DNA of 64,000 nucleotides from a virus (lineage: Duplodnaviria > Heunggongvirae > Uroviricota > Caudoviricetes). Shown here piece after piece: positions 17,551 through 64,000 of the stretch (its first letter is position 1; each line of letters starts with the position of its first letter). Under the pieces are notes generated by a model. It searched no databases and was not told where the DNA came from. It saw nothing but the letters and a program-made list of their open reading frames with translations. Position numbers and translations under genes: made by a program. The stretch is taken from positions 15,486-79,485 of IMG/VR virus record IMGVR_UViG_2740892219_000010. One strand, given 5' to 3'.

Positions 17551-17858
17551 GAAATTCTCCGCTCAAAATAAACAAACTGATTCACCGCTCCGATAGGCAT
17601 TTCGAGTTTTTCTGCGATATCCTGGCGATTAATACCCGACTGATGTAATTCCCTTGCCAGCTCGATATCCTCCTGGCAGTATTTCGCTGACTGGTGATAA
17701 TTACCCCGCAGATACATACAGATTTTCAGCTCGCGCGCTTTTGTGCGTACCGCTGCACCGGTTCTGCCAATAAGCTGCCCTATACGTTCAACTGTCATGC
17801 TGCCCGCACATTGTTTGATGATTACGACTTCCGCACGCACCCACCGTTTGTATTTCAT
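17547..17858 (-). CDS. Hypothetical protein (nin-type region)
   Basis: 103 aa ORF, overlapping neighbours on both sides. Confidence 0.4.
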   Translation of the reverse strand: MKYKRWVRAEVVIIKQCAGSMTVERIGQLIGRTGAAVRTKARELKICMYLRGNYHQSAKYCQEDIELARELHQSGINRQDIAEKLEMPIGAVNQFVYFERRIS

Positions 17859-41931: not shown

Positions 41932-42085
41932 TGCTCCCCCTGAGTAATTACAGGAAGATTACCCGCGCGCGAAACTGTTCTCCTTAACCCCCTGTTCTGG
42001 CCGTTTTCTTACAACAAAAGCCCTTTGTATCAGCCTGTTACGCTTTGCCATCATGACTGAAGAACCAGTCAGAGGGGCAAAAACT

Positions 42086-47104: not shown

Positions 47105-47558
47105 TTCCCTGCGTGAAGCCATGACCCGTTCATGCCGATGGTGTCAGGCCAACCCGGAAAAATTCACCATTTTCGTGGAGAGCGGCAACATTGAAACGAC
47201 AGGAGAAACCCCATCGTTTGTTTACCGCTATCAGATGGTGATGTTTGTCATGGATTACGCCGGGGAGCTGGACGACCTCACGCTGCCGCTGCTGGCGTGG
47301 TTATCCGAAAATCAGCCGCAGTTGTTGCTCAACCCTGAGCGTAATCAGGACATCAAATTTTCTGCCGTTATTAATGACGATGACAGCGCCGACATCCTGT
47401 TTACACTGCCCCTGCGGGAGCGCGTTCGCGTCACGCGCAACAGTCAGGGCACACCACAGGCAGAACACCTGCCGGAGCCAAAACCCCGCCTGCCATCTTC
47501 CGAAGGCGACTGGTCACATGTATTCCAGGATGTGACGTGGGGCGAAAGCGATGGATAA
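47091..47558 (+). CDS. R: Tail completion protein gpR-like
   Basis: 155 aa, P2 size and position. Confidence 0.65.
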   Translation: MLKTDSLREAMTRSCRWCQANPEKFTIFVESGNIETTGETPSFVYRYQMVMFVMDYAGELDDLTLPLLAWLSENQPQLLLNPERNQDIKFSAVINDDDSADILFTLPLRERVRVTRNSQGTPQAEHLPEPKPRLPSSEGDWSHVFQDVTWGESDG

Positions 47559-48186
47559 GGCATTCACCCGCGCGGATGAAACCTTCGAGGCTATCCGCGA
47601 CAGCCTGAATCAGCAGGCCATCAATAACATCGCCAGAAAGCTGGCACAGGATTTACGCCGCGCCCAGCAGGCACGTATCCGGTCACAGAAAGCGCCGGAC
47701 GGGACCGCATGGACACCACGCAGACGCCGCGTAACCCGGATACAGGAGCGCATTCGCTTTATCTGGAATAACGAAACACGCACGCTGAAAAACTGGCATC
47801 ACGACACAGGGAAATACGGGCGAACCATTACCGGGTGGGATGAGGATAAAAACAATATCCGCACGTTTTACCGGGATGACATCGACCGTTTTCTGGAAAT
47901 ACGCACCCGGCGTATCAACCAGGACAGCACAAAGCACGTCCCCATGTTCATAAAGCTGCGCACCGTCCGTTACCTGAAAGCCCGCGCGGATACCTCCGGT
48001 GTGACAGTGGGTTACAGCGGCGTGGCCGCACGTATTGCACGCGTTCATCAGTTCGGTGAACGCGATCAGGTTGCGCCGGGTATTTTCACCAATTACCCGG
48101 TACGTGAGCTGCTGGGTATCAGTCAGGCGGATGAGCGCCTGATTTATAACACGGTGCTGGGCCGGATTGCGGAGGCAGTACAGTGA
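47551..48186 (+). CDS. S: Tail completion / virion morphogenesis protein gpS-like
   Basis: 211 aa, P2 position. Confidence 0.55.
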   Translation: MDKAFTRADETFEAIRDSLNQQAINNIARKLAQDLRRAQQARIRSQKAPDGTAWTPRRRRVTRIQERIRFIWNNETRTLKNWHHDTGKYGRTITGWDEDKNNIRTFYRDDIDRFLEIRTRRINQDSTKHVPMFIKLRTVRYLKARADTSGVTVGYSGVAARIARVHQFGERDQVAPGIFTNYPVRELLGISQADERLIYNTVLGRIAEAVQ

Positions 48187-49114: not shown

Positions 49115-50011
49115 ATGCCTGCCGTTGACCTTTCACAGTTACCGGAACCCGCCATCATCGCGGAGCCTGATTTTGAGGCAATTCTGGCTGACACAAAGGC
49201 CATGATGATTGCGGCTTATCCGGCCGAACAGCGCGCCGCCGTCTCCGCAGCGCTGGAGCTGGAATCGGAACCCCTGAACGTTATCGCTCAAACCATGTCG
49301 TTTCGTGAAATGCTGTTACGCCAGCGGGTCAACGAGGGCGCACGCGCCTGCATGTTAAGCCACAGCGCCGGAACAGACCTGGACAACCTCGCAGGTAATA
49401 TGAACACAAAGCGCCTGGTTATCACTCCGGCAACGGATACCACCGACGCGGTGATGGAAAGCGACACCTCGCTGAGACTGCGGGCGCAGCGGGCGTACGA
49501 CGGGCTGAGCGTTGCTGGCCCGTCAGGTGCATACGAGTATTTTGCCCGCAGTGCCAGCGGTCTGGTGCGTGATGCGCGGGCTATCAGTCCCTCTCCGGCA
49601 AATGTGACAGTTTCCATCCTGTCCACTGAAGGCGACGGCACAGCAACAGAGGCATTGCTCAATACCGTTCGCACTGCTCTGAACGCGGAGGACACCCGCC
49701 CGGTGGCCGACCGCCTGACCGTACAGAGCGCCAGAATCGTGACATGGCGGCTGAATGCAAAACTGTACTTTTACCCCGGCCCGGAATCCGAACCTATTCT
49801 GGCCGCGGCGGAATCGTCGTTCAGGAAGTGGCTGTCTGAGCAGGGACTTATCGGTCAGGACGTGGCGCTGTCAGCCATTGCTGCCGCACTTCATGTGCAC
49901 GGCGTGCAACGCGTGGAGATAATCGAACCCACCCAGAATATAGCCATCAGCGACATACAGGCGGCGCGTTGTGAGTCATTCACCATCAGCGAAGGTGGGC
50001 GCAATGAGTAA
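49115..50011 (+). CDS. J: Baseplate protein gpJ-like
   Basis: 298 aa, P2 order. Confidence 0.75.
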   Translation: MPAVDLSQLPEPAIIAEPDFEAILADTKAMMIAAYPAEQRAAVSAALELESEPLNVIAQTMSFREMLLRQRVNEGARACMLSHSAGTDLDNLAGNMNTKRLVITPATDTTDAVMESDTSLRLRAQRAYDGLSVAGPSGAYEYFARSASGLVRDARAISPSPANVTVSILSTEGDGTATEALLNTVRTALNAEDTRPVADRLTVQSARIVTWRLNAKLYFYPGPESEPILAAAESSFRKWLSEQGLIGQDVALSAIAAALHVHGVQRVEIIEPTQNIAISDIQAARCESFTISEGGRNE

Positions 50012-50534
50012 TTCACTGTTACCACCATCAGCCAGCAATTTCATGCGTTGTGCCGAAGCCGTCGGAACGCGCATTACAGACATTCCGGTAGACCTCAACA
50101 CACTGTGGTCGCCGGACACATGCCCGGTGCATCTGCTGCCTTATCTCGCCTGGGCGTTTTCCGTTGACCGCTGGGACCGCAACTGGCCGGAGGAAACAAA
50201 GCGCCAGGTGATTCGCGATGCGTGGCTGATACACCGACACAAGGGGACCATCAGCGCACTGCGCCGGGCCATTGAGCCGCTGGGATACCTCATTCGCGTG
50301 TCTGAGTGGTGGGAGTTCGGCGGAGAACCGGGAACATTTACCGTTGAAGTCGGCACGCTGGACAGCGGTGTGACGGAGGAAATGTATCTGGAAATGGAGC
50401 GGTTGATTGCTGATGCCCGCCCGGTCAGCCGCCACATGACAGGACTGAATATCATTCAGGAAATCCCGGGGGATATTTTCGCAGCGGCGGCAACTTATGA
50501 CGGTGAAGTTATCACCATTTATCCAGGCGATTAA
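50004..50534 (+). CDS. I: Baseplate protein gpI-like
   Basis: ATG 50004 overlapping J stop; 176 aa. Confidence 0.7.
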
Positions 50535-50536
50535 GC

Positions 50537-52990
50537 ATGAGTACCACAACACGAAAATTTAAAACCGTTATCACTGATACGGGTGCAAAAAAATTAGCAC
50601 AGGCAGCCGCACCAGATGGCAAACCCGTCCGCCTGACACATATGGCCGTGGGTGACGGCGGCGGTACTTTACCCACGCCAGACAGTAAGCAGACCCGTCT
50701 CGTGCATGAGGTGTGGCGACATACCGTTAATCGCGTCTTCCTGGACGCAACACATCAGAACCGCATTATTGCGGAGCTGGTTATTCCTCCAGAAACGGGC
50801 GGATTCTGGATCCGGGAAATTGGTGTGTTTGATGAGCACGGCGATTTAATCGCGGTGGGCAATACTGCCGAAAGTTACAAGCCAGCCGTTGCCGAAGGGT
50901 CAGGGCGTGCGCAAACATTTCGCACCATCCTGACTGTATCCAGCACTGCCACCGTGGCGCTTACTGTGGATAACACCATGGTGATGGCCACAGCGGATTA
51001 CGTGGATAACAAACTAAAAGAGCATGAACAGTCACGACGTCACCCGGATGCCTCGCTGACCGCAAAAGGTTTTACTCAGTTAAGCAGTGCGACCAGCAGC
51101 ACCTCCGAGTCACTGGCAGCAACGCCAAAGGCAGTAAAATCAGCCTATGACAATGCTGAGAAACGTCTGCAGAAAGACCAGAACGGTAACGATATTCCAG
51201 ATAAGGGCGCTTTCCTGAACAACATTAATGCGGTCAGCAAAACCGACTTTGCTGCTAAGCATGGCATGCGTTATGTGCGCGTTAATGCTCCGGCAGGTGC
51301 AACACCGGGGAAATATTACCCTGTTGTTGTTATGCGCTCTGCTGGCTCAGTAAGCGAGCTGGCATCAAGAGTAATTATTACTACCGCAACACGAACTGCG
51401 AACGATCCACTAAATAACTGTGAGTTTAATGGATTCGTTATGCCTGGCGGCTGGACTGACAGGGGGCGTTATGCCTATGGAATGTTCTGGCAATATCAAA
51501 ACAATGAACGAGCCATTCACTCAATAATGATGAGTAATAAGGGCGATGATTTGCGCTCTGTGTTCTATGTTGATGGCGCTGCTTTCCCTGTTTTTGCGTT
51601 TATCGAAGATGGTCTGTCAATATCCGTTCCGGCCGCAGATCTCGTTGTCAATGATACGACCTATAAGTTTGGAGCAATAAATCCGGCGACAGAATGTGTC
51701 GCGGCTGACGTTATCCTTGATTTTAAAAGTGGGCGCGGTTTTTATGAGTCCCATTCGTTAATCGTTAACGACAATTTGTCGTGTAAAAAACTGTTCGCAA
51801 CAGACGAAATTGTAGCGCGCGGCGGCAATCAGATTCGAATGATAGGCGGGGAATACGGTGCGTTATGGAGAAATGACGGCGCTAAAACTTACCTGCTGCT
51901 TACCAACAAAGGTGATGTTTATGGCGAGCATAATGCATTGAGAGCGTTTGCTGTTGATAACGCAACTGGTGAACTGACTGTTGGAACCAAACTGTCCGCA
52001 AGTCTGAACGGTAACGCATCGACAGCTACAAAGCTGCAAACGCCCAGACGGGTTTCTGGGGTTGAGTTTGATGGTTCCAAAGATATTACTTTAACCGCTG
52101 CGCATGTTGCTGCTTTTGCCAGAAGAGCAACGGGTACGTATGCCGATGCTGATGGGGGCGTTCCCTGGAATGCTGAATCAGGCGCTTACAATGTCACCCG
52201 CTCTGGCGACAGCTATATTCTGGTTAACTTCTATACCGGAGTCGGAAGTTGCTGCACCTTGCAGATGAAGGCGCATTACAGAAATGGAGGCCTGTTCTAC
52301 CGTTCATCAAGAGACGGCTATGGTTTTGAAGAGGATTGGGATCAGCTTTACACATCGGCACATCCTCCGACAGAGCTTTACCCTGTGGGGGCTCCAATTC
52401 CGTGGCCTTCTGATTCAGTACCTACAGGCTATGCCATTATGCAGGGGCAAAGTTTTGATAAAGGCTCTTATCCTAAACTTGCGGTTGCCTATCCGTCCGG
52501 GGTTATTCCTGATATGCGTGGCTGGACAATTAAGGGTAAACCTGCCAGTGGTCGCGCCGTATTGTCTCAGGAACAGGATGGCATTAAGTCACACACCCAC
52601 AGTGCCAGCGCATCAAATACTGACCTCGGTACTAAAACGACCAGCTCATTTGATTACGGGACAAAAACGGTAAGCACGTTTAACCACGGTACAAAAACGA
52701 CAAACAATACGGGAGCACATACGCACACTGTCGGTGGTCGCTATGGTGGTGACTCTGTTGGTGGTAAACAACGCGTACAGGTATCAGGAACCAACCAGGT
52801 GTCAAGCTCTGCCGGAGCGCACGCCCATACTGTTGATATTGGTCAGCATAATCACACGGTTGGCATTGGTGCCCATGCACACACTGTGGCATTGGGTGCG
52901 CACGGACATACCATCACGGTTAACGCTACTGGTAATGCGGAAAACACCGTAAAAAACATTGCATATAACTATATTGTGAGGCTTGCATGA
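50537..52990 (+). CDS. H: Tail fibre protein gpH-like with His-rich (GAHxH) C-terminal repeats
   Basis: 817 aa; C-terminus has repeated [35 protein letters not shown]. Confidence 0.8.
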
Positions 52991-53856
52991 TTAATTTAAT
53001 TCTTTCAGCACCAGTACCTGAAATGGCTGAAGCATTTAAGCGGGTATTCGCAAATGCAGATAATGTGGATGTTGTAGAAAAACCATTTGAAGCAATCCCG
53101 GAATTTGACTGCATGGTCAGTGCGGCAAACAGTTTCGGGCTAATGGATGGCGGCGTTGACACTGCCATTACTGCATTCTTTGGTACTCAGTTACAGACAC
53201 GTGTTCAGAATCATATTCTTCGTGAATATCTTGGTGAGCAGCCTGTAGGCACTGCATTTGTTATTGAAACGGGGGATAACAACCATCCCTGGCTGGTACA
53301 TGCGCCAACAATGCGCGTTCCGCTGACCATTGACGGAACAGACGCTGTATATAACGCCACGTGGGCTGCTTTACTTGCCATCTTTCAGCACAATAAAAAT
53401 GCAACGACAGACAGGAAAATAAAGACGGTGGTATTCCCTGCAATGGGGGCCGGATGTGGTCAGGTGCCGTTTGAAAGTGTTGCCCGGCAGATGAAGCAGG
53501 CATGGGATAACTTTAATAAAAAAACAGAAGCAATTAACTGGGAATACGCACACTCCCGCCAGTTGGCAGTATTTAATACATGCGCGTACTGCCCGGGTGC
53601 TCCTGTTTGTCGTTATGCGGATATTAAATATATTGGACTTGGCGATTACCGAACGTATTGCTTACGGTCGGGGCAGGTATGCATTAATCCTGAACATCAG
53701 GTTGATGACGTGCTGACTAATAATCGTTCTCGCCCGGGGGCACATATGCATCAGATTAATCCGATAAAATCCGTAGGTAATATTGCCATTGGCGCACACA
53801 GCCACGGAAGGAATATCACCATTGGTGCTCATTCCCATACCCCACATAAACAATAA
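52987..53856 (+). CDS. Macro-domain protein with Cys-rich segment and tail-fibre-like GAHxH C-terminus
   Basis: 289 aa; [26 protein letters not shown] and [14 protein letters not shown] match macro-domain signatures (cf. YmdB); C-terminal GAHMHQ, GAHSHG, GAHSHT repeats; ATGA-coupled to H. Confidence 0.65.
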
Positions 53857-53880
53857 TTCTTTCTCTGATTAGAGGTGAAA

Positions 53881-54456
53881 ATGACTTTCAGAATGAGTGC
53901 TGAAGCACAAACCATTCGCGTATTTAATTATCTCGATGGTACAAATGAATTTATTGGAGAAGGTGACGCATATATTCCACCGCATACAGGTCTGCCTGCA
54001 AACAGCACAGATATTGCGCCTCCTGATATTCCAGCGGGTTTTGCCGCCGTTTTCAATGCAGATGAAATGAAATGGGAACTGATGGAAGACCATCGCGGAA
54101 AGACTGTCTATGAAACAAAAACAGGAGCAGCCATTTATATTTCTGAACTTGGCGCATTACCATCTGATGTAACAACAATTTCCCCGACCGGCAACTATCA
54201 GAAATGGAACGGGAATGCGTGGGTGGACGATGAGAGCGCAGAACGTGATGCGCTTGTCAGGGCAGCAGAGTCCCGGAAGAAAGAGCAGATTGCATATGCA
54301 GGTGAAATTATTGCCACTCTGCAGGATGCTGTCGATTTGGATATGGCTACAGAAGAAGAGAAATTAAGTCTGACAAAATGGAAAAAATATCGGGTATTAC
54401 TTAACCGCGTTCAGCCAGAAAATGCCCCTGATATAGAGTGGCCAGAATTAGTGTAA
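53881..54456 (+). CDS. G: Tail fibre assembly chaperone gpG-like
   Basis: ATG 53881 with RBS; C-terminus [34 protein letters not shown] parallels recalled P2 G. Confidence 0.75.
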
Positions 54457-54476
54457 AAGTAAGGTGATTTAAGGAG

Positions 54477-54509
54477 CAAAACCGCCAATATATTTATTAG
54501 CGGTTTTTT
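54477..54509. terminator. Putative bidirectional terminator between convergent G and U
   Basis: aaaaccgc...gcggtttttt hairpin with flanking A and T runs. Confidence 0.45.
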
Positions 54510-54526
54510 CGTTAAATCAGAGCAGC

Positions 54527-55015
54527 TCAGAACAGCCCTTTAATCGAACTGGTCGCGCTGTTAAGGGATGATGTCACCTTATCTTTGAAGCCTGACAGCA
54601 TATCGCTGAACGATGAGGATTGCAGGCGTTCCCGCAAATCCTCATCACAGCGTTCAAGGGTCAGGGAAAACTCTATCTTTTTCGCTTTCCCGTAGCGATC
54701 CAGTTCAGAGCGGGTCGTGCTCGTTTCGGTCAGAACATACATGCCGTAAATCTGCCCGACGCCATCAATCAGAGGCCACGGGCGTCCCGCATACGCCTGC
54801 GTGGTCAGCAGCGACAGCGACACTTCGCCGCCTGTAATCTCAGGATAAAGCACGCCGGAAAGAACGATGCGATCATCACCTGCACCGATATACTGCCAGC
54901 TTGCTGAACGGTTAACGCGCTCGTTTTTCACATGTCGCCAGCTTTTGTTTTGCTGTAACTGCTGATGCGGTAATGTGCGCAATTCAAAAACAAACATGCC
55001 GTAGATCATCATCAT
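54527..55015 (-). CDS. U: Tail protein gpU-like
   Basis: 162 aa; MMMIYGMFVFEL..KSWRH..GVLYPEITGG parallels recalled P2 U. Confidence 0.75.
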   Translation of the reverse strand: MMMIYGMFVFELRTLPHQQLQQNKSWRHVKNERVNRSASWQYIGAGDDRIVLSGVLYPEITGGEVSLSLLTTQAYAGRPWPLIDGVGQIYGMYVLTETSTTRSELDRYGKAKKIEFSLTLERCDEDLRERLQSSSFSDMLSGFKDKVTSSLNSATSSIKGLF

Positions 55016-55026
55016 GGCACGACTCC

Positions 55027-57864
55027 TTACTCTTTATCATAAAAGCTGCCACGCCCGGCACGGGTACGCCGCTCCAGTTCTGCCCTGACCATTTCGCCGA
55101 CCAGTTTCGCCAGTTCGCGGGGATTCTGCGTAACAACGTTATGCAGATGGACATGAATTTCACCACCAAATCCGGGGGTCGCAGCCTCCCGGCTGCGGGA
55201 AGATGCGGAAACGGGCGCAACTGGCGCACGTGCGGCCTCCACGACCGGACGGGAGCTTGCTGCAACAACAGGGGGCAGCGCCGGAGATAACGGAGCCGGG
55301 GGCGCGGGAGTGATATTGATTGCAGGAAGAGCCTTGTTGCTCTGCGCAACCTTTCGCTCCTGCCACTCCCCACGAACAGCAAGCGCACGGGGCAGGTTCT
55401 TAAAGACAATATCACCGGGGCCGATACGCTTTTTCGTCTCATCAACCAGCTTGCCTGTGTTATCTGCAATTTTGCTGAGCCTGCGCAGCGTGCCAGTGTT
55501 GTTGTCCGTGAGCGGCTTGTTGTCTTTAGGCTTATCGCCTCCGGTCCCTGTTTCCGCAGATTTCGGCGGATTGATTTTTGCCAGGTCCCCCTGAAGCAAA
55601 GCAACCTTGTCCTGAAGAATGGCCGCACGCTGCGCGTCTTCGATTTTCTTTCTCGCCCTTTCCGCTTCATCTGGAAGGACGCCAAGTTTTTCCAGTATCC
55701 ATGCCAGCGTATCCAGCAGCATTTTTGCAGGCGTCAGGACAAGCTGTAACGCACCGCCAAGAACGTTGCCGAACACCTCGCCAGCACTGGTGCATTTATC
55801 CAGCGTTTCCTTGCTGGATTCCATCGGTGACAGCAGCGATGTAAACCAGTTAAAGACCTGAATCACGCCATCACGAACCAGTTCGAAAACAGGGCCAAAC
55901 CGTTCAAAGGTTTCGCGTAACGGGGCCAGCCGCTCCATAATCCCGCTGAACACCCCGGCAAAAAATGCCCTGATTGGGTCCCAGTATTTCCAGATGAGAA
56001 CGGCAGCTCCGGCAAGCGCAGCTACGATAAGACCGACCGGGCTGAACAACGCCCCGATAGCGCCTCCCAGTAAAGAGACGGAACCCGCCACCATTCCCCA
56101 CAGCGCTGGCAGGACCCTGACAGCATTCATTGATCCGGTCAGGAGGGAAAAACCAAGACGCAGTTTTGCCAGCGGGCCAGCAAGCACCCCAAGAGCCAGT
56201 GACAACGAGCCAACCGTTGCAGTCATTGCCAGCAGCGCACCGCCTGCAATCAGTAGCTGGCGCGTCAGTGCCGGATGGGCCTGCGCCAGCTCCGTCACCT
56301 TTGAGACCACCCGAGTGAGCCACTGCGTGACAGAGCGCAGCGGACCGTCAATCAGATCCGCAATGCGGATACGCAGCCCCTCCCATGCACTGCCGAGTGA
56401 TTTCAGGTCGCCATCAAGGTTATTGGCCATAACCTTTGCCGTGCGTTCAGCCTCACCGCGTGCGCCTTCAAGTTCTTTTCTCAGTTTGGGCAGAGAACCG
56501 TCACCTGCCGCATCAACGAGGGCCATAAATGACGTGAAGGCCTCTTCTCCGGCTATGTCCTTAAAGAACGATACCCGGTCAACTTCCCCGTATTTGCGGG
56601 TGGCTTTATAAAGGTCGGCCAGCACATCCTCCATCGGGCGCATTTTGCCGTTCGCATCAGAGACAGCCACACCAAGCTCTTTCAGCGCCTCTGCTGCCGC
56701 CTTTGGCGGTGATGCCAGACGAGCAAGGCTGGCACGCATTGCCGTCCCGGCATCACTCCCTCTGATACCCATATTCGCCAGCACGCCCGCCATCGCTGCG
56801 GCCTGCTCCAGCGATATTCCCAGCTTACCCGCCACCGGACCTGCATATTTCATGGTTTCGCCCAGCGCGCGAAGGTCGGTGTTAGTACGGGTAAACGCCG
56901 CAGTAAGTGTGTCGCCGACCCGGTCCATCTGGTCAGCAGAGAGGCCGAACTGCGTCAGGATATTTGAGCCAATATCCGCCGTCTCGCCAAGGTCCATACC
57001 GCCAGCCGTTGCCATGCTCAGCACGCCGGGAAGCGCAGCCTGAATGGCTTCTGGTGTGAAGCCAGCCATAGCAAGAAATGCCTGCCCACTGGCGGCATCA
57101 CTCGCAGTAAACTGCGTTTCAGAGCCGAGCTTTAGCGCCTGCTCACGCAGCGCCTTAAACTGCGGGCTGTTCTGGTCAATTCGCGTCAGCGCCTGCACAC
57201 GGGACATCTCTTTCCCGAATCCGATAGCGGGCTGCAAAAAACGCCCGGCAGCATAGCCGCCAGCCGCTGCCGCACCAGTTGCCAGCGCACCACCCGTTTT
57301 CAGTTTTCCCGCTGTTTCCTGCGCGCGTGAATACTGCTCACGCGCCCGCGTTACACGCGCAAGCGCCTGTCGTTCGCGTTCAAGCTGGTTGTTGTACTGT
57401 TCGGTGCGTCTGATGGCCTGCTGGATGGTGTTATCGCTGCCTGTCAGGGAAATACCGTGGCGTTTAAGCTCTCCGCCAAGCTCCCGCATTTTCTGAATTT
57501 CCCGCGTGCGCGATTCATTCAGGCGTTCAAGCCGGGTGCTTAAATGCTGCATCAGCCTTTGTTGTTTTTCGCTGAGCACAGTACCCGTGCGTTGTAACTG
57601 ATGAAGGGCGTTAAGCTGGCGTCGTGCTTTCACGATGCCAGCATCCGCTTTACTGACAGCATCGCGGGCGCGCTCAAATGAACGCGCCTGACGCTCGAGA
57701 TTTTTGATCGCCCCCTGCGTTCGCTGGATGGAGTCACCAAGCTGTCCCATCAGGCGGCGGGCGTTTTCGGCTGGCCGGGTCAGCCTGTCAACAGCACTGA
57801 AGGCGACCCGAATGTCAAGAGTCTTCATCGTCTGCATTCCCACTGCGAAGTGCCGCCCGCTCAC
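55027..57864 (-). CDS. T: Tail tape measure protein gpT-like
   Basis: 945 aa, Ala/Gly-rich with long helical segments, P2 position. Confidence 0.8.
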   Translation of the reverse strand: MSGRHFAVGMQTMKTLDIRVAFSAVDRLTRPAENARRLMGQLGDSIQRTQGAIKNLERQARSFERARDAVSKADAGIVKARRQLNALHQLQRTGTVLSEKQQRLMQHLSTRLERLNESRTREIQKMRELGGELKRHGISLTGSDNTIQQAIRRTEQYNNQLERERQALARVTRAREQYSRAQETAGKLKTGGALATGAAAAGGYAAGRFLQPAIGFGKEMSRVQALTRIDQNSPQFKALREQALKLGSETQFTASDAASGQAFLAMAGFTPEAIQAALPGVLSMATAGGMDLGETADIGSNILTQFGLSADQMDRVGDTLTAAFTRTNTDLRALGETMKYAGPVAGKLGISLEQAAAMAGVLANMGIRGSDAGTAMRASLARLASPPKAAAEALKELGVAVSDANGKMRPMEDVLADLYKATRKYGEVDRVSFFKDIAGEEAFTSFMALVDAAGDGSLPKLRKELEGARGEAERTAKVMANNLDGDLKSLGSAWEGLRIRIADLIDGPLRSVTQWLTRVVSKVTELAQAHPALTRQLLIAGGALLAMTATVGSLSLALGVLAGPLAKLRLGFSLLTGSMNAVRVLPALWGMVAGSVSLLGGAIGALFSPVGLIVAALAGAAVLIWKYWDPIRAFFAGVFSGIMERLAPLRETFERFGPVFELVRDGVIQVFNWFTSLLSPMESSKETLDKCTSAGEVFGNVLGGALQLVLTPAKMLLDTLAWILEKLGVLPDEAERARKKIEDAQRAAILQDKVALLQGDLAKINPPKSAETGTGGDKPKDNKPLTDNNTGTLRRLSKIADNTGKLVDETKKRIGPGDIVFKNLPRALAVRGEWQERKVAQSNKALPAINITPAPPAPLSPALPPVVAASSRPVVEAARAPVAPVSASSRSREAATPGFGGEIHVHLHNVVTQNPRELAKLVGEMVRAELERRTRAGRGSFYDKE

Positions 57865-58347
57865 GCCAGCTAACCACTTCGCCGGGCGTCATCATGAAGA
57901 TTTCGGCGGGCGACCAGTTAAAAATAACGGCAATATCTGCCACAAAGTCTTCTATGTGCTCAAAGCACACAACCGTGATCAGGCTTCCGTCGCCTGTTCG
58001 TTCTTCCCGCCAGAGTCCGCACCGCTCAAAAAATTTACGGCAACCACACATAACTGAATAAAGTCACGGGATGCCATTTTTTTGATCGTCACTTCATCCA
58101 GTCGCGGTGATGTCACGCGTGACAACAGCGTAAACATGGATTCCGCTTTCAGATTCAGCACATCAGACAGCGACAGACCACGCAGGGATCCAGCCTGCTC
58201 AATAGCCCCGGTGATCTCCACATACGTGATTTTTTCGTCGCCTCGCTCAATTGGCTGGGTAAGTTTTACGCCGCGCTCGCTGGTTTCTTTCGCAGTATCA
58301 GCAACCACCACAGCGTTTTCAGTATCGGTATTTTTCGTCTCTTTCAT
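57815..58347 (-). CDS. Tail assembly chaperone fusion E+E-prime (programmed -1 frameshift)
   Basis: E frame (57979-58347) and overlapping E-prime frame (57815-58051) joined at a TTTTTTG slippery heptamer (minus strand, plus coordinates 58027-58033). Confidence 0.6.
57979..58347 (-). CDS. E: Tail assembly chaperone gpE-like
   Basis: 122 aa ORF between tail tube and tape measure. Confidence 0.65.
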   Translation of the reverse strand: MKETKNTDTENAVVVADTAKETSERGVKLTQPIERGDEKITYVEITGAIEQAGSLRGLSLSDVLNLKAESMFTLLSRVTSPRLDEVTIKKMASRDFIQLCVVAVNFLSGADSGGKNEQATEA

Positions 58348-58401
58348 CAGAAAACTCCTTTCAGTCAGAGGCGACGCACTGCGCCGCCTGCATATTACTT
58401 A

Positions 58402-58914
58402 TCAGCCGAGCCCGAGCGCGGAGCGGATGCGGTCGGGTACAATGTCCTTGCCATCCTTCCGGTAGATGTGGTTCACCAGGTCAATTTCCCACACCGGACG
58501 ATCGTTAATACTCAGCTTGTAGTAGGTGTTTTTGACAGCGTAAGTGTGTGACGTGGCTTCGCCCTGTTTGGCCTCCCCCATATCAATTTCCGTCACACGC
58601 CCGCGCATCTCGATTTCATACAGGTCGCTTTCTGCATCGGTGTAGTATTCACCCGCAAAACGCAGCAGCGTGCCGTCCATTGTTCCGCCATATTTAAGGA
58701 ACAGCGCACGAACGGCGCCACCCATGACAAAACTCGCATCAAGCGCGGAATCGTCCAGGCCGAGGTCGATACTCACCGCTCCCAGCATGCCACCACCACG
58801 ATAGCTGTCGGTTTTACGCGTCAGTTTAGGCGGGGTGACAGACGTCACCTTACCCACTTCATTTTCACCATCCACAAACAGCGTAAAAAAACGAAGATGT
58901 TTTGGTACGGCCAT
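58402..58914 (-). CDS. FII: Tail tube protein gpFII-like
   Basis: 170 aa, downstream of sheath. Confidence 0.8.
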   Translation of the reverse strand: MAVPKHLRFFTLFVDGENEVGKVTSVTPPKLTRKTDSYRGGGMLGAVSIDLGLDDSALDASFVMGGAVRALFLKYGGTMDGTLLRFAGEYYTDAESDLYEIEMRGRVTEIDMGEAKQGEATSHTYAVKNTYYKLSINDRPVWEIDLVNHIYRKDGKDIVPDRIRSALGLG

Positions 58915-60098
58915 TAAGCACCTCCAAGCACTGCAAATGCAGGACCAAAGAACTCATCAGTGAACGCCTGGTAAAGCTCCATATCTTCCAGCGGAGGAAC
59001 GGGCGTATATTTATAGCGAATACGCACGCGCCCCTGTCGTAATTCTGTGGTGCTGTTATCCACGATGTCATACCAGCACGATGCGCCAATCAGTTTCCCG
59101 GCAGTAACCAGCGAATCCAGTTTTGCCCTGATGGCACTGATGACGTCCTTCACGTTCGCGGGCGTCAGTGGACTGTCGATGGTTTCAAACTGCGCTTCCG
59201 CAATTGAATCAGCCAGCACCTGTGCGGTTCGGGTATACACCTCAAAGATGTAGGCATTCGTTTCCGGTGTGCGGTTGCCCCAGAAGCGGAACCCGTTGCG
59301 GCGAATGATGGTTGTGATTTCTTTGTTGTTGAGGCTGTTGGCATCGCTGTCAGCAGCCTGCAACGACCAGAACACATGCCTGGACATCCCCAGCACATTT
59401 TTGACCGGAACGTTGGACAGCGATTTGTGCCAGCCCTGCTCATGGTCAATGTACGCACGAAGGCCGCACGCATAGGCTGGCGCGGGGAAAACCTCATTCT
59501 CGCCACTTTTCGGGTTGTAAGCGATGAAGTCCGGCCACAGGAGCATCAGCTCGCGTTCGTTGAATTTTTCACGGTATGCAATGGCTTCAGCCATCGTGTT
59601 ACAGCCATGACAGGAGGCATACACAAACGCGCGCAGTTTACCTGCAATCACGCACAGGGATTTTGTCACCGCCTCCGTGTCCAGCCCCGGCGCGGCCAGA
59701 ATACGCGGACGGTATCCGATGCTTTCATCCTGCTCTGCAACAAGCAGCGCATACATCCCCGTATAGCTGCCGTCGGATTCAGAACCACCGATAACCAGTT
59801 GATCCTGTGTTTTTCCGTCTTCTTCTTTGTGTTCAGCCACGCGAACGACGATCACCTTTGTGCTCACCTGGTCTGCAATGGGTTTCAGCGCACGGTACAG
59901 CGTCCCCGTTGTCCCGCATTTTCCCAGCACGTCATTGACGCGGGTCACTAATGCAGGCTTGTTCAGCGGGAACAGCTTCGCGTCCGCATCGTCCGCCGTT
60001 GCCACGATACCGATAACGCTGGAATCAACGTCGTTAATTGCTGTTACCAGGTCGGTACTTTCCGTAACGCGGGCGCCATGAAAGCGAGTTTCACTCAT
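58914..60098 (-). CDS. FI: Tail sheath protein gpFI-like
   Basis: Start at internal ATG 60098 (MSETRFHGA) by alignment to recalled P2 FI (GFRFWGNRT, YTRTAQV, YTPVPPLE); 394 aa. Confidence 0.85.
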   Translation of the reverse strand: MSETRFHGARVTESTDLVTAINDVDSSVIGIVATADDADAKLFPLNKPALVTRVNDVLGKCGTTGTLYRALKPIADQVSTKVIVVRVAEHKEEDGKTQDQLVIGGSESDGSYTGMYALLVAEQDESIGYRPRILAAPGLDTEAVTKSLCVIAGKLRAFVYASCHGCNTMAEAIAYREKFNERELMLLWPDFIAYNPKSGENEVFPAPAYACGLRAYIDHEQGWHKSLSNVPVKNVLGMSRHVFWSLQAADSDANSLNNKEITTIIRRNGFRFWGNRTPETNAYIFEVYTRTAQVLADSIAEAQFETIDSPLTPANVKDVISAIRAKLDSLVTAGKLIGASCWYDIVDNSTTELRQGRVRIRYKYTPVPPLEDMELYQAFTDEFFGPAFAVLGGA

Positions 60099-60253
60099 AG
60101 TTAGCCCCTTGTATCCGTTAAATGATTCGGCAACAATCATCACCCACCACGCGCGTAATCTCATCCCTGCGCCGTTCTTGCCGCCCGGCGACAACAAAAA
60201 GCAGTAACCCCGCCCGCACACACATGCGACCATGCTGCACAGGGAGGGAGCCG

Positions 60254-61354
60254 ATGATTGACACCACCATGCAACTGTTCAACCAGAGTACTGACCCCGT
60301 GAAGATGCCTGATTTTGATATTCTCGCGGAGGGGAAAACGCTGTCCGGTGTGGCAGAACGCCTGATGAGCCTGTCACTGACCGACAACCGGGGATTTGAA
60401 GCAGACCAGCTCACCATCACGCTGGATGATGCTGATGGTCAGTTGCAGTTGCCGCCACGGGGCGCTCGCCTGACGGTTCTCATTGGCTGGAAAGGCGAAC
60501 CGCTGACAGAAAAAGGCACTTACATTGTTGATGAAATTGCTCATGAAGGACCGCCCGACAGACTGACCATTTCAGCCAGAAGCGCAGATTTTCGGGATGA
60601 ATTTAACGTCAAGCGCGAAGTATCCTGGCATGATGTAACCGTTGAACGCGTGGTGTCTGCAATTGCTCACCGATACGGCCTGAAACCGCAAATCAGCGAA
60701 ATGCTGATGGATATTGAAATCGACCACGCTGACCAGACCGAAGAAAGCGACATGTCCTTCCTTACACGCATGGCGGAAATGCTGGGCGCAATCACCACGG
60801 TAAAAAGCGGTAATCTGTTATTCATCATGCCAGGTGGTGGCGTGAACGCGCAGGGAAAACCATTGCCATCGTTTGCCATCACACGCAGCAGCGGCGATCG
60901 CCATCAGTTTCGCATTGCTGACCGCGAGGCGTATACAGGTGTACGCGCCTACTGGCTTGATCTTAATTACGGGAAAAAGAAAAAAGTCAGCGTGAAACGC
61001 CGCAAACCGAAAAAGGAGAAAAGCAGCAGCCGGGAAGGCGACTATATGGCAGGCGCGGAAGGCAACGTGTTTGTGTTACGCAAGACTTATCAGAACGAGC
61101 AGGCAGCAAGACGCGCAGCGGCGGCAAAGTGGCAGCAGCTACAACGCGGAGCCGCATCATTCTCCATCACGCTGGCACGTGGTCGCGCTGAACTCTACCC
61201 CGAAATGCATGGCACGGTGGCAGGCTTTAAAAGCGACATCGACAATCAGGACTGGATTATTGCAAAAGTTGAGCATTCTATTGATAACAGTGGCTTTACC
61301 ACACAGCTTGAGCTTGAAGCAAAAATCCCGGAATGGATAGCAGAAACAGAGTGA
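60254..61354 (+). CDS. D: Tail protein gpD-like
   Basis: ATG 60254 with RBS agggagggag; 366 aa, P2 D size; upstream of ogr. Confidence 0.75.
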   Translation: MIDTTMQLFNQSTDPVKMPDFDILAEGKTLSGVAERLMSLSLTDNRGFEADQLTITLDDADGQLQLPPRGARLTVLIGWKGEPLTEKGTYIVDEIAHEGPPDRLTISARSADFRDEFNVKREVSWHDVTVERVVSAIAHRYGLKPQISEMLMDIEIDHADQTEESDMSFLTRMAEMLGAITTVKSGNLLFIMPGGGVNAQGKPLPSFAITRSSGDRHQFRIADREAYTGVRAYWLDLNYGKKKKVSVKRRKPKKEKSSSREGDYMAGAEGNVFVLRKTYQNEQAARRAAAAKWQQLQRGAASFSITLARGRAELYPEMHGTVAGFKSDIDNQDWIIAKVEHSIDNSGFTTQLELEAKIPEWIAETE

Positions 61355-61395
61355 GCAACTTAGAATAGCGGCAGCACTACGTTAAGGGGGTTGCC

Positions 61396-61656
61396 ATGTT
61401 CCGTTGTCCGCTTTGTGGCGCATCTGCCCGTATCCGCACCAGTCGTTCGGAAAATGATTCAGATACCGTACGGAAAAAATATTACCAGTGTAACAACCTG
61501 GAATGCGGCGTATGCTTCTCAACACTGGAGGCTTTCCATAAATTCACATCGAAACACGCCCCCGGCGTTCACTCTTCAGAGGGCATCCCGTGGAATGAGC
61601 TACCAGCTTCACACAGGGGAAACAACCAGATGAGTTTGCCCTTACCTCAGAATTAA
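61396..61656 (+). CDS. ogr: Ogr/Delta-type zinc-finger late-gene activator
   Basis: MFRCPLCGASARIRTSR...YYQCNNLEC parallels recalled P2 Ogr (MFHCPLC..RTSRY..YHQCQN). Confidence 0.8.
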   Translation: MFRCPLCGASARIRTSRSENDSDTVRKKYYQCNNLECGVCFSTLEAFHKFTSKHAPGVHSSEGIPWNELPASHRGNNQMSLPLPQN

Positions 61657-61846
61657 CAGGCTGAATTGCCGGAGTAACAAAAAAGCGATAAATTACGCGC
61701 GGGTGCCTTTCGGCTGATGGCTGGAGGGAATACCCGAAGGCCAGATGTGGAAAGGCCCCGGAAAACATTTCTGTTTAACCGAGGCCCTGACCATCTAACC
61801 TTAGCAAGTGATAGGTTAGCGCCTCCCCAAAAAAGGAGCAAGCGCT

Positions 61847-61987
61847 ATGTCGCAAAAATCGCTTATGGCCATCACGTTCTGCGTGACGGTAATCCTCATC
61901 ATCTGGATGCTGCACGGTTCGCTGTGTGAAATACGGATGAGCTTCTGGGGAGCGGAGTTTGCGGCGTTCTTACAGTGTAAGCAGTAA
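61847..61987 (+). CDS. hok: Hok/Gef-family type I toxin
   Basis: 46 aa MSQKSLMAITFCVTVILIIWMLHGSLCEIRMSFWGAEFAAFLQCKQ; SLCEIR and E.AAF match recalled Hok; overlapping mok-like frame 61717-61929; RBS aaaaaggag. Confidence 0.7.
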   Translation: MSQKSLMAITFCVTVILIIWMLHGSLCEIRMSFWGAEFAAFLQCKQ

Positions 61988-62076
61988 GGAAACCGCGACG
62001 GGGGAGCAATCCCCCGTCAATCGGTTGCTAAGGCTGGCCGAAGTGGCACCCTATCCCATGGACACAAACAAGAAAA

Positions 62077-62107
62077 CCCGCAGCGTAAAAACTGCGGGTT
62101 TTCTTTT
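62077..62107 (+). terminator. Intrinsic terminator downstream of hok-like gene
   Basis: cccgcag-cgtaaaaa-ctgcggg followed by ttttctttt. Confidence 0.7.
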
Positions 62108-62178: not shown

Positions 62179-62460
62179 TTACTCAGCATTCTCCTGCTTC
62201 CATTGCCGGATCATTTCATCCGTAACATCACTCTCATAACATACCACGTCATACCCTCCAGTACGGCTATATGCACTGCGTCTACCACATCTACTACCAT
62301 TCCTTGCATGATTATAAGGACACGCACAATTGCCTGGATACGATTCAATGGATTCTTTAATTATTTCTTTCTTGATCTGAGCATCAGACTTTCCTGTTGC
62401 TGCATACCCACTAAAAGATACCAAACAAAAACAGATTGCCATTAATAAACCACATCGCAT
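62179..62460 (-). CDS. Hypothetical small secreted Cys-containing protein (cargo)
   Basis: Start taken at MRCGLLMAICF; hydrophobic signal-like N-terminus; AT-rich. Confidence 0.4.
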   Translation of the reverse strand: MRCGLLMAICFCLVSFSGYAATGKSDAQIKKEIIKESIESYPGNCACPYNHARNGSRCGRRSAYSRTGGYDVVCYESDVTDEMIRQWKQENAE

Positions 62461-62928
62461 ACCGATACACTCTATTACTAACCAATCATAACCCACATCA
62501 TAAAATCGAGATGTGGAGTACAACACCTTTAACAAGAAGGTGTCATAACGATAATATGCCGTGCAATTCATCAAAAAAAAGATCTATATCAAAGAGATAG
62601 AGCTCTTATCAGTGCTGCAGACATCGGCATTCGAGGCAGCAGAAAAACAGTAAATCTGACGAATTTGCCTTTTCTCAGGATGTTGTCAGATTAAAAAAGA
62701 CAGATTAGCGCAGGTACCTTTTGGTGGATGGCGGGAGGAAAAATGAAGTCGAGTGGAAAAATCCCAGAAAAATTTTTGTTTAACCGAGGTCCTAGTTCAC
62801 TATGCGAAATACGGAGGAGCTGCAGGAGAATTCGGCTTCATCCTTAGAGTTTAAACAGCACGTGCACTACTATTGTTTCTGCATATCGCCACACCATCGC
62901 CACTCCACCGCCATTGCACAAAATACAA

Positions 62929-63054
62929 ATACAAAAAAACCACCCGAAGGTGGTTTCACGACACTGCTTATTGCTTTGATTTTATTCTTATCTTCCCCAT
63001 GGTACCCGGAGCGGGACTTGAACCCGCACAGCGCGAACGCCGAGGGATTTTAAA
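62929..63054. repeat. att direct repeat copy 2 (126 bp), overlapping the 3-prime half of intact tRNA-Leu
   Basis: 125/126 identical to 28088-28213. Confidence 0.9.
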
Positions 63055-63086
63055 TCCCTTGTGTCTACCGATTCCACCATCCGGGC
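63000..63086 (-). tRNA. leuZ: tRNA-Leu
   Basis: 87-nt minus-strand sequence, reverse complement matches recalled E. coli leuZ including 3-prime CCA. Confidence 0.9.
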
Positions 63087-63097
63087 TCGGGAAAAAT

Positions 63098-63171
63098 TGG
63101 AGGCGCGTTCCGGAGTCGAACCGGACTAGACGGATTTGCAATCCGCTACATAACCGCTTTGTTAACGCGCC
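63098..63171 (-). tRNA. cysT: tRNA-Cys
   Basis: 74 nt, reverse complement matches recalled E. coli tRNA-Cys. Confidence 0.9.
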
Positions 63172-63224
63172 AAATTCTTCAGGCTTTTCAGCCAGACATC
63201 CGCCTGAGCCGATGTCTTTTAAAC

Positions 63225-63300
<76 letters not shown>

Positions 63301-63451
63301 ATTCATCAAGCAATCAGTTAATCACTTGATTTTATTATCGTCTGGCAATCAGTGCCGCCGTTCGATGCGTTGCATTCTACTTACCTGGCGCGATGAGTCA
63401 ACGATATTTTTCACCACTTTTGATCGTTTGCTGAAATTTGCGTCGAAACGA

Positions 63452-64000
63452 TCACTGATCAAGCAAATCCGCTCGTGCAGCGCTCAAATATTGCAACATT
63501 GACCATAGGGTCAGTACTGCAGCCACGAAGAAAAGTGCAATCCCCGCGTACTCAACCCAAATGTTTGGACGCCACAACAGCCAGGCCAACGCCACCATTT
63601 GCGCCGTGGTTTTCACTTTACCAATCCAGGAGACAGCCACGCTACTGCGTTTACCCAGCTCCGCCATCCACTCGCGCAGTGCAGAAATGATAATTTCACG
63701 GGCAATCATCGTTGCCGCCGGTAAAGTCACCCACCAGCTATGGTAATGCTCAGTTACCAACACCATCGCAATGGCGACCAGCACTTTATCCGCTACCGGA
63801 TCAAGAAAAGCGCCAAAACGGGTACTCTGGTTCCAGCGCCGGGCCAGAAAACCATCAAACCAGTCAGTCACCGCCGCGACGCAAAAAATGAGTGCGGCAG
63901 CAAACGGCGACCAGGTGACAGGCAGATAAAAGACCAATACAAAGAATGGGATAAGGATGACACGGAACAGTGTGAGCAACGTAGGGATATTAAATTGCAT
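63452..64000 (-). CDS. pgsA: CDP-diacylglycerol--glycerol-3-phosphate 3-phosphatidyltransferase
   Basis: 182 aa ORF matching recalled E. coli PgsA; start ATG at window end; expected neighbour of the glyW-cysT-leuZ cluster. Confidence 0.9.

What the first reader, a model, noticed from the sequence alone, without database searches (positions are those of the whole stretch)
54527..60253. Tail sheath-to-gpU block is inverted relative to canonical P2 gene order
V-W-J-I-H-(macro)-G run on the plus strand and D-ogr also on the plus strand, but FI-FII-E-E-prime-T-U between them are on the minus strand, converging on G at a shared hairpin and diverging from D at 60099-60253. In P2 as I recall it, FI through D form one co-directional operon. 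Either this lineage has an inverted tail module with its own late promoter, or an inversion occurred in this prophage.
Basis: partly seen in the sequence, partly recalled or inferred. Interest (0 to 1): 0.45.

Follow-up and report, generated by a model that had tools for sequence, protein, structure and literature searches.

The report
Inverted tail module, normal for P88-like phages
The tail sheath-to-gpU genes really do run backwards compared with phage P2, but this is the fixed gene order of a large, old group of working P2-like phages (P88, SEN4 and relatives), not a defect or a recent event in this prophage.

Summary
U, T, E/E', FII and FI lie on the minus strand (54527-60098), between V...G and D-ogr on the plus strand. 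A two-way terminator hairpin sits at the G/U end, and a 155-bp divergent gap lies at the FI/D end (60099-60253). The P2 reference record confirms that P2 has FI-FII-E-T-U-D as one co-directional operon.

The inversion is not special to this prophage:
- The closest phages share it: plaque-forming P88, phiSM, PhiR44_2 (genus Xuanwuvirus, about 92% identity).
- SEN4 (Senquatrovirus) and a Klebsiella Reginaelenavirus share it.
- All 80 close IMG/VR relatives share it.
- All 59 species-representative Enterobacterales loci whose D is at least 60% identical share it.
- The FI|D junction is contiguous in 1,355 of 5,426 complete E. coli genomes.
- All 21 surveyed loci with D at 49-54% identity are collinear like P2, as are three more distant phages.

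Trees of D, FI, FII and U fit one ancient inversion.

The gap holds one conserved P2-type activator dyad, T(G/C)T-N12-ACA (60176-60193). It lies about 82-87 bp from the FI start, as in P2 pF. Conserved -10-like elements flank it about 55 bp to each side, which mirrors P2's shared pP/pO site. This points to a bidirectional late promoter; that step is inferred, not shown. The finding is ordinary and of low interest.

The parts
41996..42013 (.). Companion late-activator dyad TCT-N12-ACA (GTTCT...ACAACAAAAG) in the divergent P/O gap. It is the only other site in the window with the same extended half-sites in an intergenic region.
   Evidence: The O start is probably the ATG at 42086, which aligns with the P2 gpO N-terminus. 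That makes the P/O gap 154 bp.
54474..54508 (.). Two-way intrinsic terminator hairpin shared by the convergent G (plus strand) and U (minus strand) transcription units.
   Evidence: -23.6 and -23.5 kcal/mol on the two strands, z = -6.5 and -7.5, with a U-run after the stem on each strand.
54527..55015 (-). gpU tail protein (162 aa).
   Evidence: PF06995, E = 5.7e-39. Same position and strand in P88 and PhiR44_2.
55027..57864 (-). gpT tape-measure protein. This is the maximal ORF; the likely start is the ATG at 57828.
   Evidence: PF10145, E = 4.9e-59. for the start.
57815..58347 (-). gpE (57979-58347) and the E+E' frameshift product. The slippery T_TTT_TTG is at 58027-58033 and the E' frame is open to 57815.
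   Evidence: P88 and PhiR44_2 annotate the E and 'GpE family' ORFs at the same place.
58402..58914 (-). gpFII tail tube protein (170 aa).
   Evidence: PF04985, E = 1.6e-45.
58914..60098 (-). gpFI tail sheath protein (394 aa; true ATG at 60098).
   Evidence: PF04984, PF22671, PF17482; 100% identical copies in IMG/VR.
60136..60164 (-). Predicted core of the FI-operon promoter: -35-like ATGAGA (60164 to 60159), 17-nt spacer, -10-like GATGAT (60141 to 60136). Predicted transcription start near 60129.
   Evidence: In 40 non-redundant relatives anchored on the dyad, the invariant positions are A2, A5 and T6 of a minus-strand hexamer that ends 48.5 bp from the dyad centre. Inferred, not mapped.
60176..60193 (.). 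Late-activator (Ogr-type) dyad TCT-N12-ACA, centre 60184.5. It lies 86.5 bp from the FI ATG and 69.5 bp from the D ATG.
   Evidence: 55 of 60 inverted-type loci carry T[GC]T-N12-ACA 78.5-88.5 bp from the FI ATG, mode 82.5. P2 pF is at 82.5.
60225..60233 (+). Predicted D-ogr promoter: extended -10 TGc + GACCAT. Predicted transcription start near 60240, just before the Shine-Dalgarno GGGAGGGA at 60242-60249.
   Evidence: conserved 'G.aA..aT' at a fixed distance from the dyad. Inferred, not mapped.
60254..61354 (+). gpD baseplate hub / late control D family protein (366 aa).
   Evidence: PF05954; 96% identical cluster with 6,052 member sequences; 53% identity to P2 gpD.
61361..61366 (+). -10-like TAGAAT of a probable promoter of ogr's own, in the 41-bp D-ogr gap.
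   Evidence: A -10-like hexamer (TAGAAT, TAAAAT, CATAAT, TATAAT or TATACT) recurs about 25-30 nt before the ogr ATG across the clade. P2 annotates its ogr promoter in the equivalent gap.
61396..61656 (+). ogr-type zinc-finger late activator (86 aa).
   Evidence: PF04606, E = 2.4e-14.

Best explanation
The window carries an intact P88-like (genus Xuanwuvirus, family Peduoviridae) prophage. Having the block [pF promoter-FI-FII-E/E'-T-U] inverted relative to P2 is the normal, fixed gene order of a large clade of enterobacterial P2-like phages. One ancient inversion had breakpoints between G and pF and between U and D. It turned the block round and carried the pF activator site with it.

As a result:
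1. The long plus-strand late operon that ends with V-W-J-I-H-(macro)-G and the minus-strand FI-to-U operon now converge on one two-way terminator (shown by sequence and folding).
2. FI and D diverge from a conserved gap of about 155 bp. It holds a single Ogr-type dyad, T(G/C)T-N12-ACA.

Inferred mechanism: Ogr bound at this one dyad activates two promoters placed about 55 bp to either side. One reads leftward through FI-FII-E/E'-T-U and the other reads rightward through D (and on into ogr). This is the way P2's single site serves pP and pO.

Ogr itself probably still starts from a small sigma-70 promoter of its own, just before its gene. The phage would then run its late genes from two bidirectional control regions, P/O and FI/D.
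For: Shown:
- Gene identities and strands.
- P2 is collinear (PMC3931495 lists the FI-FII-E-E'-T-U-D operon under PF and the TGT-N12-ACA consensus).
- The same inverted order is annotated in P88, PhiR44_2, SEN4 and the E. coli RM9088 prophage. tblastn finds it in Klebsiella phage Kp4871-3.
- 80 of 80 IMG/VR loci with FI at least 95% identical share it.
- 59 of 59 GTDB species-representative loci with D at least 60% identical share it, across more than 25 Enterobacterales genera. 21 of 21 loci with D at 49-54% identity are collinear.
- Mannheimia, Burkholderia and Aeromonas phages are collinear.
- The inverted set is a single split in NJ trees of D, FI, FII and U.
- The junction is contiguous in 1,355 of 5,426 complete E. 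coli genomes.
- P88 and phiSM form plaques (PMC5285337, PMC6456863).

Promoter model:
- The dyad is present in 55 of 60 loci, 78.5-88.5 bp from the FI ATG. Collinear loci have it at 79.5-82.5 bp and P2 at 82.5 bp.
- Conserved -10-like positions sit on both sides at fixed distances. They predict starts 111 bp apart, equal to the spacing of P2's annotated pP and pO starts, 3016 and 3127, around one dyad.
- The same extended motif occurs in the window's own P/O gap.
- A conserved -10 lies before ogr.
Against: - No transcription data were available. The starts, the Ogr dependence and the two-way use of the dyad are all inferred from conservation and geometry.
- The window's left half-site is TCT, not the canonical TGT. 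This variant is shared with many relatives.
- The predicted D leader is only about 14 nt.
- Five of 60 loci lack a match to the dyad pattern at the expected place. Three have CCT in the left half-site; two Providencia loci differ more.
- The survey saw only the best 80 of 420 matching genomic loci, so rare exceptions in either direction could exist.
- ogr and J trees do not follow the split, which shows mosaic exchange around the block.
Confidence: 0.9

Rival explanations
1. A recent inversion, or a rearrangement in a decaying prophage, specific to this genome.
For: Only the contrast with the P2 gene order.
Against: - The arrangement is identical in plaque-forming phages P88 and phiSM, and in PhiR44_2 and SEN4 (PMC5285337, PMC6456863).
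- It is identical in 80 of 80 IMG/VR relatives and 59 of 59 genomic relatives down to 60% D identity.
- All genes of the block are full length, and the E/E' frameshift site is kept.
Confidence: 0.01
2. An assembly artefact: a mis-joined or flipped contig.
For: None found.
Against: - The FI|D junction is contiguous, at 90-99% identity, in 1,355 complete E. coli genomes.
- It is also contiguous in independently sequenced phage genomes.
- The other junction is a well-formed convergent terminator.
Confidence: 0.01
3. A programmed invertible segment that flips between orientations, like the Gin/Cin/Hin tail-fibre switches. Close relatives do carry a DNA invertase next to U.
For: - P88 and RM9088 have a DNA invertase and an invertible H'/G' segment directly beside U.
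- The orientation of G varies among close relatives.
Against: - The switch in the relatives covers only the fibre-tip and chaperone genes.
- The FI-U block has the same orientation relative to D and to J/I/H in all 139 inverted-type loci examined.
- No inverted repeats pair the two ends of the block.
- This window has no invertase gene between G and U.
Confidence: 0.01
4. The lineage feature is real, but the FI/D gap is not a shared two-way Ogr site. The dyad would serve only the FI operon (the old pF). D-ogr would be read from an ordinary sigma-70 promoter that does not depend on Ogr, or D would be expressed earlier than the other tail genes.
For: - The D-side elements resemble an extended -10 promoter (TGn + aAnnaT), which can work without an activator.
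- In many relatives a TTG-type -35 lies 17 bp upstream.
- The dyad-to-FI distance is the one inherited from pF.
Against: - The D-side -10 sits at the mirror distance from the dyad centre in all relatives. That gives the same 111-bp start-to-start spacing as P2 pP/pO.
- The gap length is held at about 145-158 bp across the clade.
- D is a structural baseplate-hub protein that is needed together with the other tail proteins.
Confidence: 0.3

Closest known systems
Escherichia phage P88 and other Xuanwuvirus members (PhiR44_2, P884B11, Citrobacter phage Shae_phiSM), family Peduoviridae
   Same: - About 92% nucleotide identity over the tail region.
- Identical order and strands: V-W-J-I-H-G on plus, U-T-E'-E-FII-FI on minus, D-ogr-hok on plus.
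- Same FI (394 aa) and D (366 aa) lengths.
- Prophage next to ihfA, as in E. coli RM9088.
   Different: - P88 and RM9088 carry an invertible H'/G' segment and a DNA invertase between G and U. This window instead has a macro-domain ORF between H and G, and no invertase.
- The tail-fibre C-terminus differs: only 72% of the 12-kb query is covered.
Bacteriophage P2 (Peduovirus P2), F operon and late promoters
   Same: - Same gene set (FI, FII, E/E' with the T_TTT_TTG frameshift, T, U, D, ogr).
- Same activator-site type (TGT-N12-ACA class).
- Same dyad-to-FI distance, about 82 bp.
- D is 53% identical.
   Different: - In P2, FI-FII-E-T-U-D is one co-directional operon and U abuts D.
- P2 has a separate pV promoter and the fun(Z) gene before pF.
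- Here the FI-U block is inverted, D has its own promoter side, and V follows S directly with no gap.
P2 pP/pO divergent late promoter pair sharing one activator site
   Same: - One dyad lies midway between two divergent starts. P2's dyad centre is 3071.5, with starts at 3016 and 3127, 111 bp apart.
- Here the dyad centre is 60184.5, with predicted starts near 60129 and 60240.
- PMC3931495 describes the same shared PP'/PO' site in phage Smp131.
   Different: In P2 the starts were mapped experimentally and are annotated. Here they are only predicted. The genes served are tail genes, not head and packaging genes.
Salmonella phage SEN4 (Senquatrovirus) and Klebsiella Reginaelenavirus phages
   Same: Same inverted FI-U block and divergent FI/D gap. 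SEN4 also has a macro-domain ORF after the fibre gene.
   Different: D is only 63-75% identical. They belong to different genera and have different hosts.

Membership tests
P2-like phages (Peduoviridae), tail module | Presence of the sheath FI, tube FII, chaperones E/E' with a -1 frameshift, tape measure T, U and the D hub. | tested here: met
   Pfam hits. The T_TTT_TTG slippery site and the open E' frame. tblastn identities to P2 proteins.
P2-like phages (Peduoviridae), tail module | Canonical P2 order: FI-FII-E-T-U-D co-directional in one operon. | tested here: not met
   FI-U lie on the minus strand and D on the plus strand. P2 itself is collinear. Gene order is not a formal criterion for the family; whole genera of the family share the inverted order.
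P2-like phages (Peduoviridae), late regulation | Ogr/Delta zinc-finger activator, plus TGT-N12-ACA dyads about 55 bp upstream of the late transcription starts. | tested here: inconclusive
   The ogr gene is present. Dyads of the form TCT-N12-ACA lie in the P/O and FI/D gaps and are conserved across the clade. Binding and start sites were not measured.
Xuanwuvirus (P88-like phages) | High nucleotide identity to P88 across the genome (ICTV uses about 70% for a genus; stated from my own knowledge) and shared gene order. | tested here: met
   92.5% identity over 72% of a 12-kb tail-region query, with the same gene order. Only the tail region, not the whole prophage, was compared.
Programmed invertible DNA segments (Gin/Cin/Hin type) | A serine invertase gene, plus inverted-repeat crossover sites flanking the segment. 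Both orientations are found among close relatives. | tested here: not met
   No invertase lies between G and U in the window. No inverted repeats pair the block ends. The orientation is invariant in 139 related loci.

The most novel reading that the evidence does not exclude
The ancient inversion created a second two-way late control region. One Ogr dyad now drives both the FI-to-U operon and D-ogr, so ogr gains positive feedback. With pV lost, since V abuts S, the whole late programme of this clade runs from only two activator sites. P2 uses three. This compact wiring has not been described in the P88, phiSM or SEN4 papers I could read.
Probability: 0.55. Interest if true: 0.3.

Novelty: already known. 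Interest (0 to 1): 0.13.

Why it matters
It matters little for discovery. The arrangement is already recorded in reference phage genomes: P88 (KP063541/NC_026014), SEN4 and Klebsiella Reginaelenavirus phages. It occurs in about a quarter of complete E. coli genomes.

It has modest practical value:
- Prophage annotators and synteny-based tools should not flag this order as a rearranged or defective P2.
- The orientation of FI relative to D is a clean marker that separates two deep clades of enterobacterial P2-like phages.
- The predicted two-way FI/D promoter is a simple, testable case of how an operon inversion can be tolerated when the activator site is symmetrical.

Tried and rejected
- I looked for inverted repeats at the two block ends as traces of a recombination or switch mechanism. 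None pair 54.5 kb with 60.2 kb.
- The generic sigma-70 and terminator scan found no promoter in the FI/D gap and missed the G/U hairpin, because of its loop-size rule. Conservation analysis and folding replaced it.
- My first reading of the P/O gap put the predicted pO start after the ORF's first ATG (42053). Comparison with P2 gpO shows that the real O start is probably 42086.
- Literature searches for an explicit description of the inversion found nothing. The P88, phiSM and SEN4 papers and searches on Peduoviridae gene order do not mention it. The xenorhabdicin paper PMC3133312 is not held.
- Two scripts failed at first because loci are stored several to a file.
- A PHROGs scan failed on a wrong hok frame and was not repeated.

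Full report
**1. What is in the sequence**

| Strand | Gene | Coordinates | Evidence |
|---|---|---|---|
| plus | V | 47551-48186 | ORF list |
| plus | W, J, I | follow V | ORF list |
| plus | H | 50537-52990 | fibre domains |
| plus | macro-domain ORF | 52987-53856 | Pfam Macro |
| plus | G | 53875-54456 | Caudo_TAP |
| minus | U | 54527-55015 | PF06995, 5.7e-39 |
| minus | T | 55027-57864 | PF10145, 4.9e-59 |
| minus | E | 57979-58347 | no Pfam hit; position as in P88, P2-type frameshift site |
| minus | FII | 58402-58914 | PF04985, 1.6e-45 |
| minus | FI | see below | three sheath domains |
| plus | D | see below | PF05954 |
| plus | ogr | 61396-61656 | PF04606 |

- The long ORF that reaches 60233 over-extends FI. 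The true FI start is the ATG at 60098, giving 394 aa as in P88.
- D starts at 60254, giving 366 aa.
- The P2-type -1 frameshift site T_TTT_TTG lies at 58033, with the E' frame open to 57815. The module looks intact.
- Between G and U, a hairpin at 54474-54508 folds at -23.6 and -23.5 kcal/mol on the two strands (z = -6.5 and -7.5). A U-run follows it on each strand. It looks like a two-way intrinsic terminator for the convergent units.

**2.

Yes. The P2 reference record annotates a single F operon 'FI, FII, E, E', T, U, D'. It starts at 17626-17628, has an activator site at 17555-17583, and U abuts D. All of it is on the same strand as V-G and ogr. PMC3931495 restates the four P2 late operons and their TGT-N12-ACA consensus.

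**3. Is the inversion special to this prophage?**

No.

- A megablast of 50000-62000 finds phages of the genus Xuanwuvirus at about 92% identity: P88, P884B11, 520873, PhiR44_2 and Citrobacter phage Shae_phiSM.
- The annotated records of P88 and PhiR44_2 show exactly the same order and strands.
- P88 was induced, forms plaques and has contractile-tailed virions (PMC5285337). phiSM is a spontaneously released, plaque-forming temperate phage (PMC6456863).
- All 80 IMG/VR loci with FI at least 95% identical have D and ogr opposite to FI, and J/I/H opposite to FI.
- The 1-kb FI|D junction is contiguous in 1,355 of 5,426 complete E. coli genomes. That rules out an assembly artefact.

**4. How far does the arrangement reach?**

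I scanned one genome per GTDB species with a D-protein alignment. I then determined gene order in the 80 returned loci by tblastn, using both the window's proteins and P2's. The result is clean.

| D identity to the window | Loci | Gene order |
|---|---|---|
| 60% or more | 59 | all U- T- E- FII- FI- / D+ ogr+ (inverted) |
| 49-54% | 21 | all FI+ FII+ E+ T+ U+ D+ ogr+ (collinear, like P2) |

- The inverted loci come from Salmonella, Citrobacter, Klebsiella, Raoultella, Enterobacter, Kosakonia, Kluyvera, Serratia, Pectobacterium, Brenneria, Erwinia, Pantoea, Mixta, Edwardsiella, Hafnia, Xenorhabdus, Photorhabdus, Providencia, Morganella, Yersinia and others.
- Among isolated phages, SEN4 (Senquatrovirus) and Klebsiella phage Kp4871-3 (Reginaelenavirus) are inverted.
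- More distant phages are collinear: Mannheimia 587AP1, Burkholderia SBP26 and Aeromonas LPM4. Collinear is therefore the ancestral state.
- In neighbour-joining trees of D, FI, FII and U, the inverted loci form a single split. This fits one ancient inversion. The ogr and J trees do not follow the split, as expected for mosaic exchange.
- No inverted repeats pair the two ends of the block. The block never appears flipped within the clade. So it is not a programmed switch, even though close relatives carry a fibre-tip invertase next to U.

**5. How it most likely works (inferred)**

*The gap and its dyad*
- The FI/D gap keeps a length of about 145-158 bp across the clade.
- An alignment of 57 distinct gaps shows a conserved dyad, T(G/C)T-N12-ACAAC.
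- 55 of 60 loci have it, with its centre 78.5-88.5 bp from the FI ATG and a mode of 82.5 bp.
- P2 pF has its dyad 82.5 bp from the FI ATG. Collinear relatives have it at 79.5-82.5 bp. The old pF site evidently travelled with the block.
- In the window the dyad is TCT-N12-ACA at 60176-60193.

*The flanking promoter elements*
I anchored 40 non-redundant sequences on the dyad without gaps. The remaining conserved positions are these:
- A minus-strand hexamer, gATtAT, with A2, A5 and T6 nearly invariant. In the window it is GATGAT, 60141 to 60136.
- A -35-like xTGAxx 17 nt upstream of that hexamer.
- A plus-strand TGn + aAnnaT. In the window, TG is at 60225-60226 and GACCAT at 60228-60233.

*Predicted starts*
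- These elements predict starts near 60129 (minus strand) and 60240 (plus strand). Each lies about 55.5 bp from the dyad centre, and they are 111 bp apart.
- P2's annotated pP and pO starts (3016 and 3127) lie 55.5 bp either side of one dyad and are also 111 bp apart.

*The rest of the late wiring*
- The window's own P/O gap carries the same extended motif (GTTCT-N..-ACAACAAAAG, 41996-42013). Once the O start is corrected to 42086, that gap is 154 bp long.
- V overlaps the end of S, so there is no room for a separate pV.
- A -10-like hexamer before ogr (TAGAAT, 61361-61366) is conserved in the clade. It matches the position of P2's own ogr promoter, so Ogr synthesis need not wait for the D promoter.

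*The model*
Ogr, made from its own promoter, binds two dyads. Each dyad fires two divergent late promoters: P and O...G, and FI...U and D-ogr. The two long units that converge at 54.5 kb stop at the shared hairpin. None of this has been measured. An alternative, in which the dyad serves only FI and D uses an activator-independent extended -10 promoter, remains open at about 0.3.

**6. Comparison with what is known, and novelty**

- The element is a member of the P88-like group. It differs from P88 mainly in the fibre region: a macro-domain ORF, and no invertase cassette.
- It departs from P2 in gene order only.
- The inverted order is recorded in public reference genomes. The papers that describe P88, phiSM and SEN4 do not comment on it, and my other searches found no explicit description.
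- I therefore rate the feature as already known and ordinary. The small unreported point is the likely two-way use of the relocated pF dyad.

**7. Verdict**

Interest is low, about 0.13.

Noticed in passing
window 52987-53856 (+): A 289-aa ORF with an N-terminal Macro domain (Pfam 3e-19) sits between the tail-fibre gene H, whose stop it overlaps, and the fibre chaperone G. P88 and RM9088 have an invertible H'/G' cassette plus a DNA invertase in this region instead. The same fibre-macro pairing occurs in Escherichia phage Chuche (90%), Gifsy-1 (67%) and SEN4/SEN5 (70%). Its role is unknown.
   Followed up: partly
window 61848-61978 (+) and upstream 61700-61840: A small Hok/Gef-type toxin ORF (MSQKSLMAITFCVTVILIIWMLHG...) lies after ogr. 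It is preceded by a strongly folding region (61657-61760, -44.4 kcal/mol, z = -4.4). P88 and RM9088 annotate a Hok/Gef or MokW-like gene at the same place.
   Followed up: partly
window 42053-42922 (+): The scaffold gene O is probably over-called at its 5' end. The P2 gpO N-terminus aligns with the second ATG, at 42086, which has a GAGGGG ribosome-binding site. This makes the P/O gap 154 bp, almost the same length as the FI/D gap.
   Followed up: partly
window 47551-47558: V starts inside the end of S, with no intergenic gap. P2's orf30 and pV promoter region are absent. The head, lysis, baseplate and fibre genes (O through G) appear to form one long plus-strand unit.
   Followed up: no
loci L004-L083 (IMG/VR) and L169 3296-4799: Among close relatives, the best match to the chaperone G lies on either strand. 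Several relatives carry a second inverted G'/H' pair and a recombinase. This indicates an active fibre-tip inversion switch that the window's prophage lacks.
   Followed up: partly
window 62070-62105 and about 62180-64000; L169 13658-16349: The right end of the prophage lies just before ihfA and pheT. The RM9088 prophage has the same neighbours. A symmetrical hairpin at 62070-62105 separates hok from the host genes. The attachment site itself was not defined.
   Followed up: no
locus L084: A 96% identical copy of this enterobacterial prophage region sits on a contig labelled Vagococcus sp. WN89Y, a Gram-positive genus. This probably reflects contamination or mislabelling of that assembly.
   Followed up: no
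window 60208-60220 and 41965-41972: A C/G-alternating box lies between the dyad and one of the flanking -10 elements in both late control regions. It is CGCGCG in most relatives and CCGCCCGCACAC in the window's FI/D gap. It is one of the best conserved features of the FI/D gap, and I have no explanation for it.
   Followed up: no
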